From: Escherichia coli
GTDB lineage: Bacteria; Pseudomonadota; Gammaproteobacteria; Enterobacterales; Enterobacteriaceae
Strand: one strand, 5' to 3'
Length of the DNA: 64,000 bases
NCBI RefSeq assembly: GCF_003334355.1
Contig: NZ_QOWP01000019.1
Position numbers and translations under genes: made by a program. Positions within the stretch are counted from its first letter, which is position 1. Each line of letters starts with the position of its first letter. This document shows, in pieces, positions 27,983 to 35,482 of this stretch. The notes beneath the pieces were generated by a model. It ran no database searches and was not told the DNA's origin. It saw only the letters and a list, made by a program, of their open reading frames with translations.

Positions 27983-27987
27983 CGGCG

Positions 27988-28020
27988 AGCCGGATACGCC
28001 GCAAACGTCGTATCCGGCAT
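27988..28020. repeat. REP-like palindrome
   Basis: gagccggatacgccgcaaacgtcgtatccggcat between convergent xni and fucO. Confidence 0.7.
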
Positions 28021-28036
28021 TATCACATCAGCGCAT

Positions 28037-29188
28037 TTACCAGGCGGTATGGTAAAGCTCTACAATATCCTCAAGCGTTGCTTCACGCGGGTTGCCACCG
28101 GTACAAACATCATCCAGTGCCGCCTGCGCCAGTGCCGGAATGTCTTCCTTGCGTACACCAACATCACGCAAATGTGGCGGAATACCGACATCACGGTTGA
28201 GAGCAAACACCGCTTCAACAGCGGCATTACGCGCCTCTTCCAGGCTCATACCTTCCACTTTCACGCCCATAACGCGCGCGATATCGCGGTACTTCTCACC
28301 GGTAAAGTCAGCGTTATAACGCATGACATGCGGTAACAGGATGGCGTTCGCAACACCGTGTGGAGTGTTATAAAACGCGCCCAGTGGATGCGCCATACCA
28401 TGCACCAACCCTAACCCAACATTCGAGAAGCCCATACCCGCAACATACTGCCCGAGCGCCATTTCTTCTCCGGCATCCTTATCACCAGCAACCGATCCTC
28501 GCAGCGCCCCAGCAATGATTTCAATCGCTTTAATGTGCAGTGCATCGGTTAGCGCCCACGCGCCACGGGTAATATACCCCTCAATAGCATGAGTGAGCGC
28601 ATCGACACCCGTCGCAGCTTTCAGCGCTGGAGGCATACCATCCATCATGTCAGCGTCAATAAACGCCACCTGCGGGATATCATGCGGATCAACGCAAACA
28701 AACTTGCGCCGTTTCTCTTCGTCAGTGATCACGTAGTTAATGGTCACTTCTGCCGCAGTACCTGCTGTGGTAGGAATTGCCAGAATCGGTACACTGGGTT
28801 TATTGGTCGGGGAAAGCCCTTCCAGGCTACGCACATCGGCAAACTCCGGGTTGTTGCTGATAATGCCAATCGCTTTACAAGTATCCTGTGGAGAACCACC
28901 ACCAATAGCGATCAGGTAATCCGCGCCGCTATTCTGGAATACACCGAGCCCTTCTTTGACGACAGTAATTGTTGGGTTGGGCACTACGCCGTCGTAAATC
29001 GCCCATGCCAGCCCTGCAGCATCCATCTTATCGGTCACTTTCGCCACCACGCCGCATTGCACCAGCGTTTTATCGGTGACGATCAGCGCCTTCTGATAAC
29101 CACGGCGTTTCACCTCATCGGTTAAAGCCCCAACAGCACCCCGACCAAACCATGCCGTTTCGTTCAGAATCATTCTGTTAGCCATCAT
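28037..29188 (-). CDS. fucO: L-1,2-propanediol oxidoreductase (lactaldehyde reductase)
   Basis: 383-aa ORF MMANRMILNETAWFGRGAVGAL, Fe-dependent alcohol dehydrogenase family; start may be the second Met. Confidence 0.96.
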   Translation of the reverse strand: MMANRMILNETAWFGRGAVGALTDEVKRRGYQKALIVTDKTLVQCGVVAKVTDKMDAAGLAWAIYDGVVPNPTITVVKEGLGVFQNSGADYLIAIGGGSPQDTCKAIGIISNNPEFADVRSLEGLSPTNKPSVPILAIPTTAGTAAEVTINYVITDEEKRRKFVCVDPHDIPQVAFIDADMMDGMPPALKAATGVDALTHAIEGYITRGAWALTDALHIKAIEIIAGALRGSVAGDKDAGEEMALGQYVAGMGFSNVGLGLVHGMAHPLGAFYNTPHGVANAILLPHVMRYNADFTGEKYRDIARVMGVKVEGMSLEEARNAAVEAVFALNRDVGIPPHLRDVGVRKEDIPALAQAALDDVCTGGNPREATLEDIVELYHTAW

Positions 29189-29212: not shown

Positions 29213-29860
29213 TTACTCTTCAATCCGTAACCCATAGGTTTTGAATTTCTCCAGCACTACGGCAATCTCTTCATCGCTCAGCACTGGCACCGGGTCCGTA
29301 ATCGCCAGGGTCGTCAGGTAAAGTTGCGCCAGCACTTCAACTTCATGCGCCAGCCATAACGCTTTTTCCAGATTCACCTCACAAGCGATAAGCCCATGAT
29401 GTTGTAACAAAGTTGCCTTACGATTTTTGAGAGCCAGCGCAACATGTTCAGAAAGTTCGCGTGTTCCAAAGGTCGCATAAGGCGCGCAAGGAATAGAATT
29501 ACCACCTGCCGCCGCAATCATGTAGTGAATAGCGGGGATCGGTCGGTTAAGAATGGAAACTGCTGTGCAATGAACGGCATGATTGTGAACAACCGCGTTG
29601 GCATCCGGTCTGCTTTGATAGGCCGCCATATGGAAACGCCATTCGCTTGAGGGGAGCTTTCCTTCCTCATGTTTACCGTTGCCATCAATAAAGACAATAT
29701 GCGACTCCGTCAGTTTTTCATATGGAATGCCTGTAGGCGTAATCAGCATCCCATCCTGATAACGTACACTGACGTTCCCCGCTGTCCCCTGGTTCAGTCC
29801 CAGGCGGGTCATTTCCAGGCAAGTGTCAATAATCTGACGAGCAAGTTTATTTCGTTCCAT
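29213..29860 (-). CDS. fucA: L-fuculose-phosphate aldolase
   Basis: 215-aa ORF MERNKLARQIIDTCLEMTRLGLNQGTAGNVSVRY, class II aldolase. Confidence 0.97.
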   Translation of the reverse strand: MERNKLARQIIDTCLEMTRLGLNQGTAGNVSVRYQDGMLITPTGIPYEKLTESHIVFIDGNGKHEEGKLPSSEWRFHMAAYQSRPDANAVVHNHAVHCTAVSILNRPIPAIHYMIAAAGGNSIPCAPYATFGTRELSEHVALALKNRKATLLQHHGLIACEVNLEKALWLAHEVEVLAQLYLTTLAITDPVPVLSDEEIAVVLEKFKTYGLRIEE

Positions 29861-30406
29861 TAGCTACCTCTCTCTGATTCAAAACAGGGCAATAATGTTG
29901 TTCCTTTCACACTATTGAATTAGCCGTTTAATTACCCACCATCTTCTTCCTGATTAACCAGAAAGAAATTCACAAGCTTATATTTTGTGACATGGTTCAA
30001 CTAATCACAGTAAATAACTGCAAGTTCTCTTTTTATAACCCCATTAAAAATGACCGCTCTTAAAAATATTTATCAAAACGGTCATTTTTCTATTCACCCA
30101 AGCCAGGAATGCCCGTTTTCGGCATAAACAATTAATACGGTCATCTGGTTTGTGTTTTTTATGATTTATTTTCTGAAACGGGCATGAAATTTCGATTATT
30201 AAAGTGATGGTAGTCACATAAAGTCACCTTCCAGCTAATAAGTGTGACCGCCGTCATATTACAGAGCGTTTTTTATTTGAAAATGAATCCATGAGTTCAT
30301 TTCAGACAGGCAAATATTCACTGATATGAAGCCCGAACTCGCTGGTTTTGCACTTTTGAAAACATAACCGATTACGTGCTTAAGCTTCTGAACCTAAGAG
30401 GATGCT
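29861..30406. promoter_or_regulatory. Divergent fucAO / fucPIKUR control region
   Basis: 546-bp AT-rich intergenic region between divergently oriented fucA and fucP; individual sites not resolved. Confidence 0.6.
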
Positions 30407-31723
30407 ATGGGAAACACATCAATACAAACGCAGAGTTACCGTGCGGTAGATAAAGATGCAGGGCAAAGCAGAAGTTACATTATTCCATTCGCGCTGCTGT
30501 GCTCACTGTTTTTTCTTTGGGCGGTAGCCAATAACCTTAACGACATTTTATTACCTCAATTCCAGCAGGCTTTTACGCTGACAAATTTCCAGGCTGGCCT
30601 GATCCAATCGGCCTTTTACTTTGGTTATTTCATTATCCCAATCCCTGCTGGGATATTGATGAAAAAACTCAGTTATAAAGCAGGGATTATTACCGGATTA
30701 TTTTTATATGCCTTGGGCGCTGCATTATTCTGGCCCGCTGCAGAAATAATGAACTACACCTTATTTTTAGTTGGCCTATTTATTATTGCAGCCGGATTAG
30801 GTTGTCTGGAAACTGCCGCAAACCCTTTTGTTACGGTATTAGGGCCAGAAAGCAGTGGTCACTTCCGCTTAAATCTTGCGCAAACATTTAACTCGTTTGG
30901 CGCAATTATCGCGGTTGTCTTTGGGCAAAGTCTTATTTTGTCTAACGTGCCACATCAATCGCAAGACGTTCTCGATAAAATGTCTCCAGAGCAATTGAGT
31001 GCGTATAAACACAGCCTGGTATTATCGGTACAGACACCTTATATGATCATCGTGGCTATCGTGTTACTGGTCGCCCTGCTGATCATGCTGACGAAATTCC
31101 CGGCATTGCAGAGTGATAATCACAGTGACGCCAAACAAGGATCGTTCTCCGCATCGCTTTCTCGTCTGGCGCGTATTCGTCACTGGCGCTGGGCGGTATT
31201 AGCGCAATTCTGCTATGTCGGCGCACAAACGGCCTGCTGGAGCTATTTGATTCGCTACGCTGTAGAAGAAATTCCAGGTATGACTGCCGGCTTTGCCGCT
31301 AACTATTTAACCGGAACCATGGTGTGCTTCTTTATTGGTCGTTTCACCGGTACCTGGCTCATCAGTCGCTTCGCACCACACAAAGTCCTGGCCGCCTACG
31401 CATTAATCGCTATGGCACTGTGCCTGATCTCAGCCTTCGCTGGCGGTCATGTGGGCTTAATAGCCCTGACTTTATGCAGCGCCTTTATGTCGATTCAGTA
31501 CCCAACAATCTTCTCGCTGGGCATTAAGAATCTCGGCCAGGACACCAAATACGGTTCGTCCTTCATCGTTATGACCATTATTGGCGGCGGTATTGTCACT
31601 CCGGTCATGGGTTTTGTCAGTGACGCGGCGGGCAACATCCCCACTGCTGAACTGATCCCCGCACTCTGCTTCGCGGTCATCTTTATCTTTGCCCGTTTCC
31701 GTTCTCAAACGGCAACTAACTGA
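30407..31723 (+). CDS. fucP: L-fucose:H+ symporter
   Basis: 438-aa MFS ORF MGNTSIQTQSYRAVDKDAGQSRSYIIPFALLCSLFFLWAVANNLNDILLPQFQ. Confidence 0.97.
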   Translation: MGNTSIQTQSYRAVDKDAGQSRSYIIPFALLCSLFFLWAVANNLNDILLPQFQQAFTLTNFQAGLIQSAFYFGYFIIPIPAGILMKKLSYKAGIITGLFLYALGAALFWPAAEIMNYTLFLVGLFIIAAGLGCLETAANPFVTVLGPESSGHFRLNLAQTFNSFGAIIAVVFGQSLILSNVPHQSQDVLDKMSPEQLSAYKHSLVLSVQTPYMIIVAIVLLVALLIMLTKFPALQSDNHSDAKQGSFSASLSRLARIRHWRWAVLAQFCYVGAQTACWSYLIRYAVEEIPGMTAGFAANYLTGTMVCFFIGRFTGTWLISRFAPHKVLAAYALIAMALCLISAFAGGHVGLIALTLCSAFMSIQYPTIFSLGIKNLGQDTKYGSSFIVMTIIGGGIVTPVMGFVSDAAGNIPTAELIPALCFAVIFIFARFRSQTATN

Positions 31724-31755: not shown

Positions 31756-33531
31756 ATGAAAAAAATCAGCTTACCGAAAATTGGTATCCGCCCGGTTATT
31801 GACGGTCGTCGCATGGGTGTTCGTGAGTCGCTTGAAGAACAAACAATGAATATGGCGAAAGCTACGGCCGCACTGCTGACCGAGAAACTGCGCCATGCCT
31901 GCGGAGCTGCCGTCGAGTGTGTCATTTCCGATACCTGTATCGCGGGTATGGCTGAAGCCGCTGCTTGCGAAGAAAAATTCAGCAGCCAGAATGTAGGCCT
32001 CACCATTACGGTAACGCCTTGCTGGTGCTATGGCAGTGAAACCATCGACATGGATCCAACCCGCCCGAAAGCCATTTGGGGCTTTAACGGCACTGAACGT
32101 CCCGGCGCTGTTTACCTGGCAGCGGCTCTGGCAGCTCACAGCCAGAAAGGCATCCCGGCATTCTCCATTTACGGTCATGACGTTCAGGATGCCGATGACA
32201 CATCGATTCCTGCCGATGTTGAAGAAAAACTGCTGCGCTTTGCCCGCGCCGGTTTGGCCGTCGCCAGCATGAAAGGTAAAAGCTATCTGTCGCTGGGCGG
32301 CGTTTCGATGGGTATCGCCGGTTCCATCGTTGATCACAACTTCTTTGAATCCTGGCTGGGAATGAAAGTCCAGGCGGTGGATATGACCGAACTGCGTCGC
32401 CGTATCGATCAGAAGATTTACGACGAAGCCGAACTGGAAATGGCACTGGCCTGGGCTGATAAAAACTTCCGCTATGGCGAAGATGAAAATAACAAACAGT
32501 ATCAACGCAATGCCGAGCAAAGCCGCGCAGTTCTGCGCGAAAGTTTACTGATGGCGATGTGTATCCGCGACATGATGCAAGGCAACAGCAAACTGGCCGA
32601 TATTGGTCGCGTGGAAGAATCACTTGGCTACAACGCCATCGCTGCGGGCTTCCAGGGGCAACGTCACTGGACCGATCAATATCCCAATGGTGACACCGCC
32701 GAAGCGATCCTCAACAGTTCATTTGACTGGAATGGCGTGCGCGAACCCTTTGTCGTGGCGACCGAAAACGACAGTCTTAACGGCGTGGCAATGCTAATGG
32801 GTCACCAGCTCACCGGCACCGCTCAGGTATTTGCCGATGTGCGTACCTACTGGTCACCAGAAGCAATTGAGCGTGTAACGGGGCATAAACTCGATGGACT
32901 GGCAGAACACGGCATCATCCATTTGATCAACTCAGGTTCTGCTGCGCTGGACGGTTCCTGTAAACAACGCGACAGCGAAGGTAACCCGACGATGAAGCCG
33001 CACTGGGAAATCTCTCAGCAAGAGGCTGACGCTTGCCTCGCCGCTACCGAATGGTGCCCGGCGATCCACGAATACTTCCGTGGCGGCGGTTACTCTTCCC
33101 GCTTCCTTACCGAAGGCGGCGTCCCGTTCACCATGACTCGTGTCAACATCATCAAAGGCCTGGGACCGGTACTGCAAATCGCGGAAGGCTGGAGCGTGGA
33201 ATTGCCGAAGGATGTGCATGACATCCTCAACAAACGCACCAACTCAACCTGGCCAACCACCTGGTTTGCACCGCGCCTCACCGGTAAAGGGCCGTTTACG
33301 GATGTGTACTCGGTAATGGCGAACTGGGGCGCTAACCATGGGGTTCTGACCATCGGCCACGTTGGCGCTGACTTTATCACTCTCGCCTCCATGCTGCGTA
33401 TCCCGGTATGTATGCACAACGTTGAAGAGACCAAAGTGTATCGTCCTTCTGCCTGGGCTGCGCACGGCATGGATATTGAAGGCCAGGATTACCGCGCTTG
33501 CCAGAACTACGGCCCGTTGTACAAGCGTTAA
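31756..33531 (+). CDS. fucI: L-fucose isomerase
   Basis: 591-aa [44 protein letters not shown]. Confidence 0.98.
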
Positions 33532-33639: not shown

Positions 33640-35058
33640 ATGAAACAAGAAGTTATCCTGGTACTCGACTGTGGCGCGACCAATGTCAGGGCCATCGCGG
33701 TTAATCGGCAGGGAAAAATTGTTGCCCGCGCCTCAACGCCTAATGCCAGCGATATCGCGATGGAAAACAACACCTGGCACCAGTGGTCTTTAGACGCCAT
33801 TTTGCAACGCTTTGCTGATTGCTGTCGGCAAATCAATAGTGAACTGACTGAATGCCACATCCGCGGTATCGCCGTCACCACCTTTGGTGTGGATGGCGCT
33901 CTGGTAGATAAGCAAGGCAATCTGCTCTATCCGATCATTAGCTGGAAATGTCCGCGAACAGCAGCGGTTATGGACAATATTGAACAGTTGATCTCCGCAC
34001 AGCGGTTGCAGGCTATTTCTGGCGTCGGAGCCTTTAGTTTCAATACGTTATATAAGTTGGTGTGGTTGAAAGAAAATCATCCACAACTGCTGGAACGCGC
34101 GCACGCCTGGCTCTTTATTTCGTCGCTGATTAACCACCGTTTAACCGGCGAATTCACTACTGATATCACGATGGCCGGAACCAGCCAGATGCTGGATATC
34201 CAGCAACGCGATTTCAGTCCGCAAATTTTACAAGCCACCGGTATTCCACGCCGACTCTTCCCTCGTCTGGTGGAAGCGGGTGAACAGATTGGTACGCTAC
34301 AGAACAGCGCCGCAGCAATGCTCGGCTTACCCGTTGGCATACCGGTGATTTCCGCAGGTCACGATACCCAGTTCGCCCTTTTTGGCGCTGGTGCCGACCA
34401 AAATGAACCCGTGCTCTCTTCCGGTACATGGGAAATTTTAATGGTCCGTAGCGCCCAGGTTGATACTTCGCTGTTAAGTCAGTACGCCGGTTCCACCTGC
34501 GAACTGGATAGCCAGGCAGGGTTGTATAACCCAGGTATGCAATGGCTGGCATCCGGCGTGCTGGAATGGGTGAGAAAACTGTTCTGGACGGCTGAAACAC
34601 CCTGGCAAATGTTGATTGAAGAGGCTCGTCTGATCGCGCCTGGCGCGGATGGCGTAAAAATGCAGTGTGATTTATTGTCGTGTCAGAACGCTGGCTGGCA
34701 AGGAGTGACGCTTAATACCACGCGGGGGCATTTCTATCGCGCGGCGCTGGAAGGGTTAACCGCGCAATTACAGCGCAATCTACAGATGCTGGAAAAAATC
34801 GGGCACTTTAAAGCCTCTGAATTATTGTTAGTCGGCGGAGGAAGTCGCAACACATTGTGGAATCAGATTAAAGCCAATATGCTTGATATTCCGGTAAAAG
34901 TTCTCGACGACGCCGAAACGACCGTCGCAGGAGCTGCGCTGTTCGGTTGGTATGGCATAGGGGAATTTAACAGCCCGGAAGAAGCCCGCGCGCAGATTCA
35001 TTATCAGTACCGTTATTTCTACCCGCAAACTGAACCTGAATTTATAGAGGAAGTGTGA
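33640..35058 (+). CDS. fucK: L-fuculokinase
   Basis: ORF 33610..35058; FGGY kinase from [21 protein letters not shown] with ggag SD at 33631. Confidence 0.95.
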
Positions 35059-35059
35059 A

Positions 35060-35482
35060 ATGCTGAAAACAATTTCGCCGTTAATTTCTCCCGAACTATT
35101 GAAAGTGCTGGCAGAGATGGGACATGGAGATGAAATTATTTTTTCCGATGCTCACTTTCCCGCCCATTCGATGGGACCGCAGGTGATCCGCGCTGATGGC
35201 CTGTTGGTGAGCGACTTGCTCCAGGCGATTATCCCGTTATTTGAACTGGACAGTTATGCACCGCCGCTGGTGATGATGGCAGCGGTAGAAGGTGACACTC
35301 TCGATCCTGAAGTAGAACGACGTTACCGTAATGCGCTTTCACTACAAGCCCCGTGTCCTGACATCATCCGCATCAATCGTTTTGCGTTTTATGAACGGGC
35401 GCAAAAAGCCTTTGCGATCGTTATCACAGGCGAACGAGCGAAGTACGGGAATATTCTTTTAAAAAAAGGGGTAACACCGTAA
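35060..35482 (+). CDS. fucU: L-fucose mutarotase
   Basis: 140-aa [37 protein letters not shown], RbsD/FucU family. Confidence 0.96.

What the first reader, a model, noticed from the sequence alone, without database searches (positions are those of the whole stretch)
29861..30406. Divergent control region of the fucose regulon
fucAO and fucPIKUR diverge from a 546-bp AT-rich spacer. All seven fuc genes are intact here, which matters because fucose and propanediol utilisation is a frequent target of adaptive mutations (for example IS insertions activating fucO) in laboratory strains; none is visible in this window.
Basis: partly seen in the sequence, partly recalled or inferred. Interest (0 to 1): 0.2.

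Follow-up and report, generated by a model that had tools for sequence, protein, structure and literature searches.

The report
Wild-type E. coli fucose control region
This is the ordinary, uninterrupted control region between the two fucose-utilisation operons of E. coli, already well studied in K-12, and here it differs only by natural single-base variants.

Summary
Window 29861-30406 is the 546-bp, AT-rich (35.9% GC against 51.3% for the window) spacer between divergent fucA(O) and fucP(IKUR). All seven fuc genes are full length and there is no insertion sequence.

The spacer has the same length as in K-12 and differs from it by 9 substitutions. Every published K-12 element maps onto it: the PfucAO start and -10, four CRP sites (OCrp0-3) and two validated FucR sites.

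Small additions:
- Five FucR-type boxes form a fixed-geometry array that is conserved from Escherichia to Yersinia and Photorhabdus.
- One rare base (29992 C>A, 2 of 5,021 genomes) lies in the unconstrained centre of the essential OCrp2 site. It is the only difference from the closest genome over 6.6 kb and is probably neutral.
- The tetranucleotide used by IS5 in K-12 propanediol mutants (CTAG) reads CCAG here, as in at least 49% of complete E. coli genomes.

About 7% of E. coli genomes lack this region altogether; they carry the known DarK/ABC-transporter variant instead.

Verdict: a real feature, already known, of low interest.

The parts
28037..29185 (-). fucO, lactaldehyde reductase (382 codons from the RefSeq start)
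   Evidence: Matches NF007911 at 754.6 bits against a cut-off of 537. 0 nucleotide differences from K-12.
29213..29860 (-). fucA, L-fuculose-phosphate aldolase
   Evidence: Matches TIGR01086 at 444 bits against a cut-off of 400. Nucleotide-identical to the O121 RM8352 gene; one residue differs from K-12 (P107 here, S107 in K-12).
29861..30406 (.). 546-bp divergent control region, 35.9% GC
   Evidence: Present at 80% coverage or more in 5,013 of 5,426 complete E. coli genomes.
29893..29914 (-). OCrp3, a minor CRP site in the fucA 5'UTR, centred at +19.5 of PfucAO
   Evidence: Exact match to the published sequence tagTGTGAaaggaacaACAtta (PMC11011485; mapped). Only 33% conserved across genera.
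29923..29933 (-). PfucAO transcription start (C at 29923, -63 from the fucA ATG) and -10 element AATTAA (29928-29933)
   Evidence: Published 5'RACE position and hexamer (PMC11011485). Both were found at the stated offsets.
29983..30004 (-). OCrp2, the CRP site essential for PfucAO, centred at -70.5. Carries the rare substitution 29992 C>A in its central 6 bp.
   Evidence: The K-12 sequence ttagtTGAaccaggTCACAaaa maps here with one change. Across genera, TGTGA is 100% conserved, TCAAC 79% and the centre 18%. The A allele is in 2 of 5,021 genomes.
30049..30063 (-). FucR box A- (published OFucR3, the major FucR site for PfucAO)
   Evidence: Exact match to TTAAGAGCGGTCATT. Core 87% conserved.
30072..30086 (+). 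FucR-type box A+ (ATCAAAACGGTCATT), the inverted partner of A-, 29 bp away
   Evidence: inverted repeat I1. Core 88% conserved. The 29-bp spacing holds in 49 of 55 adjacent -/+ pairs across genera. FucR binding here is inferred, not shown.
30108..30122 (-). FucR box B- (published OFucR2). Reads CCGAAAACGGGCATT here and CCGAAAACGGTCATT in K-12.
   Evidence: Both bases fit the published consensus CGGT(G)CAT. In other genera the column splits 15:11 between them.
30131..30145 (+). FucR-type box B+ (ATTAATACGGTCATC), the inverted partner of B-
   Evidence: Core 88% conserved. 29-bp spacing. Binding is inferred.
30172..30186 (+). FucR-type box C+ (TCTGAAACGGGCATG), 41 bp after B+ and 31.5 bp before the OCrp1 centre
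   Evidence: Core 88% conserved. Spacings of 41-42 bp and 31.5 bp are conserved. Binding is inferred.
30200..30221 (.). OCrp1, the distal CRP site of the fucPIKUR promoter
   Evidence: 9 of 10 matches to TGTGA-N6-TCACA. 85% conserved. Lies on the fucA side of the IS5 site, as described in PMC11894529.
30231..30234 (.). Position of the K-12 IS5 target CTAG (-374 to -371 from fucA). Reads CCAG here.
   Evidence: The window's exact 61-mer is in 2,480 of 5,015 genomes and the K-12 61-mer in 1,140 of 5,015. Only 30% conserved across genera.
30240..30261 (.). OCrp0, the proximal CRP site of the fucPIKUR promoter
   Evidence: 9 of 10 matches to the consensus. 87% conserved. With an IS5 junction at 30231 its centre (30250.5) falls at -61.5 of the fusion promoter, as published. 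The published T insertion at -146 from fucP, 'immediately downstream of OCrp0', maps to 30261.
30279..30292 (+). Probable fucPIKUR -10 (GAAAAT, 30279-30284) and start near T 30292
   Evidence: The hexamer is 99% conserved across genera. A start at 30292 would put OCrp0 at -41.5. This is my inference; the primary paper was not available.
30407..31723 (+). fucP, L-fucose:H+ symporter
   Evidence: Matches NF007524 at 977 bits. Protein identical to K-12.
31756..33531 (+). fucI, L-fucose isomerase
   Evidence: Matches TIGR01089 at 1252.7 bits. Protein identical to K-12.
33640..35058 (+). fucK, L-fuculokinase (RefSeq start)
   Evidence: Matches TIGR02628 at 844 bits. 3 residues differ from K-12.
35060..35482 (+). 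fucU, L-fucose mutarotase
   Evidence: Matches NF011949 at 306.6 bits.
35540..36271 (+). fucR, DeoR-family L-fucose operon activator (RefSeq start)
   Evidence: Matches NF007720 at 508 bits, covering profile positions 1-243 of 243. Protein identical to K-12.

Best explanation
This is the intact, common ('Variant 1') divergent control region of the E. coli L-fucose regulon, and it should work as described for K-12.

Mechanism. FucR is activated by fuculose-1-phosphate and binds CGGKCAT-type boxes in the middle of the spacer. cAMP-CRP binds four sites. Leftward, CRP at OCrp2 (centred at -70.5), helped by FucR at OFucR3 and OFucR2, activates PfucAO (start at 29923). Rightward, CRP at OCrp1 and OCrp0, together with the plus-strand FucR-type boxes, activates fucPIKUR.

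Basis. The K-12 steps were shown experimentally in the cited papers. Their transfer to this window rests on sequence identity of every element. The roles of the three plus-strand boxes and the fucP start position are inferred.

The nine differences from K-12 are natural polymorphisms and are most likely neutral for regulation.
For: - The coordinates, length and composition are as stated.
- All seven genes are intact.
- The region is collinear with K-12 and O121, with no indel.
- OCrp3, OFucR3, the TSS and the -10 match the published sequences exactly. OCrp2 and OFucR2 each match with one tolerated change.
- The published -61.5 geometry for OCrp0 is reproduced from my coordinates.
- Across 27 spacers from other genera, the CRP half-sites and FucR cores are 79-100% conserved against a 61% background. 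All variant positions of the window that lie inside mapped elements fall in variable columns.
- FucR-type boxes are enriched 181 against 5.3 expected in 47 spacers, and their spacings are fixed.
- No Rfam family matches the region.
Against: - Nothing here was tested functionally in this strain.
- The window is not identical to any complete genome in the collection. 29992 C>A lies inside the operator whose destruction lowers PfucAO 350-fold (PMC11011485), so a quantitative effect is not excluded.
- The simple promoter scan finds no consensus sigma-70 promoter in the spacer. That is expected for activator-dependent promoters but gives no independent support.
- The -35 sequence given in the 2024 paper (TTGtgA at -96 to -91) is not at that position in K-12 or in the window.
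Confidence: 0.95

Rival explanations
1. The 29992 C>A change is a functional cis-regulatory mutation. It would alter CRP affinity or DNA bending at OCrp2 and so tune basal or induced fucAO expression, for example fucO expression for propanediol use.
For: - It is the only difference from the closest genome (MLI023K1) in 6,601 bases.
- It is rare, found in 2 of 5,021 genomes.
- It recurs on a clearly different fuc haplotype in W284 and CD09.
- It replaces the consensus C at position 10 of the 22-bp CRP site, within the operator that is essential for PfucAO.
Against: - It lies in the central 6 bp, which are only 18% conserved across genera. The homologous column reads C 11, G 7, A 7, T 1, so A is the normal base in 7 of the 26 other species aligned.
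- Both recognition half-sites are untouched.
- One base change noticed after the fact carries little statistical weight.
Confidence: 0.1
2. The CCAG allele at 30231-30234 removes the tetranucleotide that IS5 uses in all K-12 propanediol-positive mutants. The classical IS5 route to fucAO activation would then be closed or re-routed in this lineage.
For: - Two papers name CTAG at -374 to -371 as the single insertion site.
- K-12 has its only CTAG of the spacer there, and the window has none.
- The neighbouring CTAA (30235-30238) is still an IS5-type target. Insertion there would put OCrp0 at -57.5 instead of -61.5, out of helical phase for Class I activation. This is my inference from the geometry.
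Against: - IS5 target choice is degenerate (YTAR), and 11 such words remain in the spacer.
- One figure legend of the 2025 paper calls the target 'ctaa'.
- I do not know whether this strain carries IS5.
- Other activating routes are possible.
- This concerns evolvability, not the present function of the region.
Confidence: 0.35
3. The base at 29992 is a sequencing or assembly error in the source of the window.
For: It is a single base, unique among the window's closest relatives.
Against: The same base is present in two independent complete genomes. The position is not in a homopolymer run.
Confidence: 0.08

Closest known systems
E. coli K-12 fucPIK/fucAO intergenic region (Zhang et al. 2024, PMC11011485; Zhang et al. 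2025, PMC11894529)
   Same: Same flanking genes, same 546-bp length, 98.4% identity. It has the same TSS, -10, OCrp0-3 and OFucR2/3, in the same positions.
   Different: There are nine substitutions:
- 29992 lies in the OCrp2 centre.
- 30112 lies in the OFucR2 core (T to G on the box strand).
- 30232 changes the IS5 target CTAG to CCAG.
- 29959 lies at -36 of PfucAO.
- The other five lie between mapped elements.
IS5-activated PPD+ allele of the fuc regulon (Chen, Lu and Lin 1989, as cited in PMC5493358)
   Same: Same locus. The IS5 site falls between OCrp1 and OCrp0.
   Different: No IS5 is present here, and the target word itself is changed.
'Variant 2' fuc locus of E. coli B/BL21, with the DarK D-ribulokinase and an ABC transporter (Saif et al. 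2023, PMC10221146; Elsinghorst and Mortlock 1994, cited in PMC12307932)
   Same: Same chromosomal position, between fucA and fucI, with the same neighbours.
   Different: In that variant the spacer and fucP are replaced by a cassette of about 6.8 kb. It encodes a LacI-family regulator, a pentulose kinase and ABC transporter genes, and has no FucR-type boxes beside fucA or fucI. The window does not have it.
Orthologous fucA|fucP spacers of other Enterobacterales (Salmonella, Klebsiella, Citrobacter, Yersinia, Photorhabdus)
   Same: They share the divergent layout and a long AT-rich spacer of 419-665 bp. They also share paired FucR boxes 29 bp apart, a further box 41-42 bp on, and two CRP sites 39-40 bp apart before fucP.
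   Different: The linker between the two box pairs, OCrp3 and the 5'UTRs are not conserved.

Membership tests
E. coli fuc regulon divergent control region (Variant 1) | Lies between divergently oriented fucA(O) and fucP(IKUR) | tested here: met
   ORF layout, NCBIfam equivalogs for all seven genes, same flanking genes as K-12.
E. coli fuc regulon divergent control region (Variant 1) | 546 bp, collinear with the K-12 spacer | tested here: met
   100% coverage, 98.4% identity, no indel. The published length is 546 bp.
E. coli fuc regulon divergent control region (Variant 1) | PfucAO start at -63 and -10 AATTAA at -73 to -68 | tested here: met
   C at 29923 and AATTAA at 29928-29933.
E. coli fuc regulon divergent control region (Variant 1) | Four CRP sites OCrp0-3 | tested here: met
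   OCrp3 matches exactly and OCrp2 has one central change. OCrp1 and OCrp0 each match the consensus at 9 of 10 positions and bracket the IS5 position.
E. coli fuc regulon divergent control region (Variant 1) | FucR operators OFucR2 and OFucR3 | tested here: met
   OFucR3 matches exactly. OFucR2 has the T/G alternative that the consensus allows.
E. coli fuc regulon divergent control region (Variant 1) | Fucose- and cAMP-dependent activation of both operons | not testable with these tools
   Needs expression assays in this strain.
IS5-activated (PPD+) fuc allele | IS5 inserted at -374 from fucA, in the fucAO orientation | tested here: not met
   Gap-free alignment to the K-12 wild type. No IS is present.
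Variant 2 (DarK/ABC transporter) fuc locus | fucP and the spacer replaced by a LacI / FGGY kinase / ABC transporter cassette | tested here: not met
   fucP and the spacer are present in the window. Examples of the cassette are in L009 and L010.
Class I CRP-dependent promoter (PfucAO) | CRP site centred near -61.5, -71.5, -82.5 or -92.5 | tested here: inconclusive
   The OCrp2 centre at 29993.5 is at -70.5 from the published start at 29923. That is one base from the canonical -71.5.
Known structured RNA (Rfam) | Match to an Rfam covariance model | tested here: not met
   0 matches at E up to 1 over 29600-30700.

The most novel reading that the evidence does not exclude
The tetranucleotide that makes this spacer the textbook IS5 'hot spot' for propanediol adaptation (CTAG) is a K-12-type allele. 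This window, and at least 49% of complete E. coli genomes, read CCAG there. The only adjacent IS5-type word (CTAA) would place OCrp0 four bases out of phase for the fusion promoter. So the reversible IS5 switch proposed for this locus may be unavailable to about half of the species.
Probability: 0.3. Interest if true: 0.3.

Novelty: already known. Interest (0 to 1): 0.1.

Why it matters
It matters little beyond annotation. The window carries a normal, complete fucose regulon with its normal control region, so the strain should use fucose and should not be pre-adapted to propanediol.

The side results are modest refinements of a well-studied system:
- The fixed-geometry five-box FucR array is conserved across Enterobacterales. 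This suggests that the published 'single' FucR sites are halves of 36-bp palindromic operators, probably shared by the two promoters.
- The polymorphism at the IS5 target bears on the idea that the hot spot is an evolved population-level switch.

Tried and rejected
- **Structured RNA in the spacer or 5'UTRs:** Rfam finds nothing at E up to 1.
- **Consensus promoters or terminators:** the scan finds none, which is uninformative for activator-dependent promoters.
- **Small ORFs in the spacer:** only short chance ORFs of 11-32 codons. I did not pursue them.
- **A divergent spacer in the roughly 400 genomes without a megablast hit:** rejected. The sensitive blastn also finds nothing, and those genomes carry the known Variant 2 cassette instead.
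- **29992 as a unique, laboratory-type mutation:** rejected as unique, because two natural isolates share it.
- **Primary papers for the fucP start and the IS5 excision study (PMC94201, PMC2838058):** not held. The fucP start position is therefore inferred.
- **The -35 hexamer as given in PMC11011485:** it could not be placed at the stated coordinates.

Full report
**Observation**

The ORF table puts fucA (215 codons, minus strand) at 29213-29860 and fucP (438 codons, plus strand) at 30407-31723, so the spacer is exactly 29861-30406, 546 bp. Its GC content is 35.9% against 51.3% for the window.

All seven fuc products match the curated NCBIfam equivalog models over their full length and well above cut-off. 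With the RefSeq start codons, each gene has the same length as in K-12 MG1655 and no internal stop. FucO, FucP, FucI, FucU and FucR are identical in protein sequence to K-12. FucA differs at one residue and FucK at three. The flanking genes are those of K-12 (xni upstream of fucO, rlmM after fucR).

**Comparison with reference strains**

The spacer is found at 80% coverage or more in 5,013 of 5,426 complete E. coli genomes, always at 97.6% identity or better in the rows shown. It aligns without gaps to K-12 (9 substitutions) and to O121 RM8352 (1 substitution). There is no insertion sequence.

The nearest genomes over 16 kb (OW1E2, E41) differ at 7-8 positions. MLI023K1 differs at a single base over 6,601 bases. 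The window therefore comes from a natural lineage that is absent from the collection but very close to several isolates.

IS disruption of this spacer is rare in complete genomes. Only 12 of 5,025 records show partial coverage and one shows a split match. One example is TW10598, where IS1 plus a deletion removes most of the spacer and the 5' half of fucP. PSS-12 has IS1 inside fucP.

**Mapping the known elements**

Zhang et al. 2024 (PMC11011485) give the following for K-12:
- the PfucAO start, a C at -63 from the fucA ATG;
- a -10 element AATTAA at -73 to -68;
- OCrp2 (ttagtTGAaccaggTCACAaaa), whose mutation lowers the promoter 350-fold;
- OCrp3 (tagTGTGAaaggaacaACAtta), with a 30% effect;
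- OFucR2 (CCGAAAACGGTCATT), with a 30% effect;
- OFucR3 (TTAAGAGCGGTCATT), with a more than 50-fold effect.

By exact string search, these fall in the window as follows:

| Element | Window coordinates | Match |
|---|---|---|
| PfucAO start | 29923 | as published |
| -10 element | 29928-29933 | as published |
| OCrp2 | 29983-30004 | one change |
| OCrp3 | 29893-29914 | exact |
| OFucR2 | 30108-30122 | one change |
| OFucR3 | 30049-30063 | exact |

Two further 9-of-10 matches to TGTGA-N6-TCACA sit at 30200-30221 and 30240-30261 (as 22-mers). They bracket the published IS5 site, so they are OCrp1 and OCrp0. As a check, Zhang et al. 2025 (PMC11894529) state that IS5 begins at -41 of the fusion promoter and that OCrp0 is centred at -61.5. 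With the junction at 30231 and the OCrp0 centre at 30250.5, the arithmetic gives exactly -61.5. Their T insertion at -146 from fucP, 'immediately downstream of OCrp0', maps to 30261.

**The FucR box array**

The core CGGKCAT occurs five times within 136 bp (30050-30185), against 29 times in the whole 64 kb. The orientations are - + - + + and the start-to-start spacings are 29, 30, 29 and 41 bp. The two minus-strand boxes are the published OFucR3 and OFucR2. The three plus-strand boxes have no published functional test. The 2025 paper only mentions 'putative' OR0 and OR1 for fucPIKUR.

To test whether the array is real, I fetched 80 FucA loci from other species. Of these, 46 have a divergent fucP behind an AT-rich spacer of 419-665 bp, from Escherichia to Yersinia and Photorhabdus. 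In these 46 spacers plus the window (47 in all), the core occurs 181 times against 5.3 expected from shuffles.

The geometry is fixed:
- a minus box is followed by a plus box at 29 bp in 49 of 55 adjacent pairs;
- plus-plus pairs are 41-42 bp apart in 30 of 44;
- the last plus box is 31.5 bp before the next CRP centre in 36 of 45 spacers;
- the two fucP-side CRP centres are 39-40 bp apart in 42 of 43;
- the link between the first pair and the second pair varies from 11 to 52 bp.

I read this as two modules. The left module is OCrp2, then 56 bp, then the A-/A+ palindrome. The right module is the B-/B+ palindrome, then 41 bp, C+, 31.5 bp, OCrp1, 39-40 bp, OCrp0 and the fucP promoter. That each -/+ pair is one palindromic FucR operator (ATGMCCG-N22-CGGKCAT) is an inference from conservation, not a demonstrated binding mode.

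**Phylogenetic footprint**

I aligned the window with 26 spacers from other species. Mean identity to the window is 61%.

| Element | Identity to the window |
|---|---|
| OCrp2 TGTGA | 100% |
| OCrp2 TCAAC | 79% |
| OCrp2 central 6 bp | 18% |
| Five FucR cores | 84-88% |
| OCrp1 | 85% |
| OCrp0 | 87% |
| GAAAAT at 30279-30284 | 99% |
| OCrp3 | 33% |

GAAAAT at 30279-30284 is a good candidate for the fucPIKUR -10. A start near T 30292 would put OCrp0 at -41.5. This is inferred, because the primary paper was not available. The low conservation of OCrp3 fits its small experimental effect.

**The substitutions**

Eight of the nine differences from K-12 are shared with O121 and belong to a common haplotype; 1,966 genomes are at least 99% identical to the window's spacer.

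- **30112.** This changes the OFucR2 core from CGGTCAT to CGGGCAT. Both fit the published consensus, and other genera split 15:11 between them.
- **30232.** This changes CTAG to CCAG. CTAG is the single IS5 target reported in all K-12 propanediol-positive mutants. The window's exact 61-mer around this site occurs in 2,480 of 5,015 genomes and the K-12 61-mer in 1,140. The position is unconstrained across genera. An IS5-type CTAA remains at 30235-30238, but insertion there would place OCrp0 at -57.5, out of phase. That is my inference.
- **29992 (C>A).** This is the ninth difference and the only one that is rare. It occurs in 2 of 5,021 genomes (W284 and CD09). Those two carry it on a different fuc haplotype, 34-35 differences away. 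It is also the only difference from MLI023K1 in 6.6 kb. It lies at position 10 of the 22-bp OCrp2 site, in the unconstrained centre, and the homologous column in other genera reads C 11, G 7, A 7, T 1. I judge it most likely neutral, with about a 10% chance of a measurable effect.

**Mechanism**

Shown in K-12 by the cited work:
- Fuculose-1-phosphate-bound FucR and cAMP-CRP activate both operons.
- For PfucAO, CRP at OCrp2 is essential and FucR at OFucR3 is the main helper.
- IS5 insertion between OCrp1 and OCrp0 creates a CRP-dependent fusion promoter for fucAO and silences fucPIKUR.

Transferred here by sequence identity: all of the above.

Inferred here: the pairing of the boxes into palindromic operators, the assignment of B+/C+ to the fucPIKUR side, and the fucP -10 and start.

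**Comparison with what is known, and novelty**

This is the same object as the K-12 fucPIK/fucAO intergenic region, and it is already known.

The roughly 400 genomes that lack the spacer even in a sensitive search carry a cassette of about 6.8 kb between fucA and fucI. It encodes a LacI-family regulator, a pentulose-type FGGY kinase (TIGR01315, 536 bits against a cut-off of 409) and a ribose-type ABC transporter. It has no FucR-type boxes beside fucA or fucI. This is the published 'Variant 2' of BL21 (PMC10221146) and the DarK insertion (PMC12307932). It is not in the window.

**Verdict**

The finding is real, correctly interpreted and ordinary. Interest 0.1; novelty: already known.

Noticed in passing
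L009:11862-18669 and L010:11911-18719 (not in the window): 400 of 5,426 complete E. coli genomes (7.4%) have neither this spacer nor fucP. Between fucA and fucI they carry a LacI-family regulator, a pentulose-type FGGY kinase and a ribose-type ABC transporter, with no FucR-type boxes beside fucA or fucI. This is the published 'Variant 2'/DarK allele of E. coli B.
   Followed up: partly
L003:7001-7832 (TW10598) and L004:6408-8501 (PSS-12): Natural IS1 events at this locus. In TW10598, IS1 plus a deletion removes most of the spacer and the 5' part of fucP. In PSS-12, a very close relative of the window, IS1 sits inside fucP.
   Followed up: partly
window 29951-29975: PMC11011485 gives the PfucAO -35 as 'TTGtgA' at -96 to -91 from fucA. 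That position reads TAATCA in both K-12 and the window, and TTGTGA occurs only at -115 to -110 (29970-29975). The published coordinates and sequence do not agree.
   Followed up: partly
window 30150-30160, 30335-30341 and 30386-30396: Three short blocks are as conserved across genera as the mapped operators but have no assigned role: TTGTGTTTTTT between boxes B+ and C+, GAACTCG in the fucP 5'UTR, and TTCTGAACCTA just before the fucP ribosome-binding site. One of the two fucP 5'UTR blocks may correspond to the proposed SrsR site.
   Followed up: no
window ~27983-28036 (xni-fucO gap), seen in L010:9983-10086: Many genomes (for example H163-H175, and L010) have about 49-50 extra bases in this neighbourhood. 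In L010 they lie between xni and fucO. I did not examine the nature of the insert; it could be a REP-type element.
   Followed up: no
L034, L041-L048, L052-L054, L056, L058, L060-L061, L063-L073, L075-L077, L080: 31 of the 80 species loci encode a FucA relative (82-88% identity) with no divergent fucP within 2.5 kb upstream. They include Escherichia whittamii and many Citrobacter, so the divergent layout is common but not universal.
   Followed up: no
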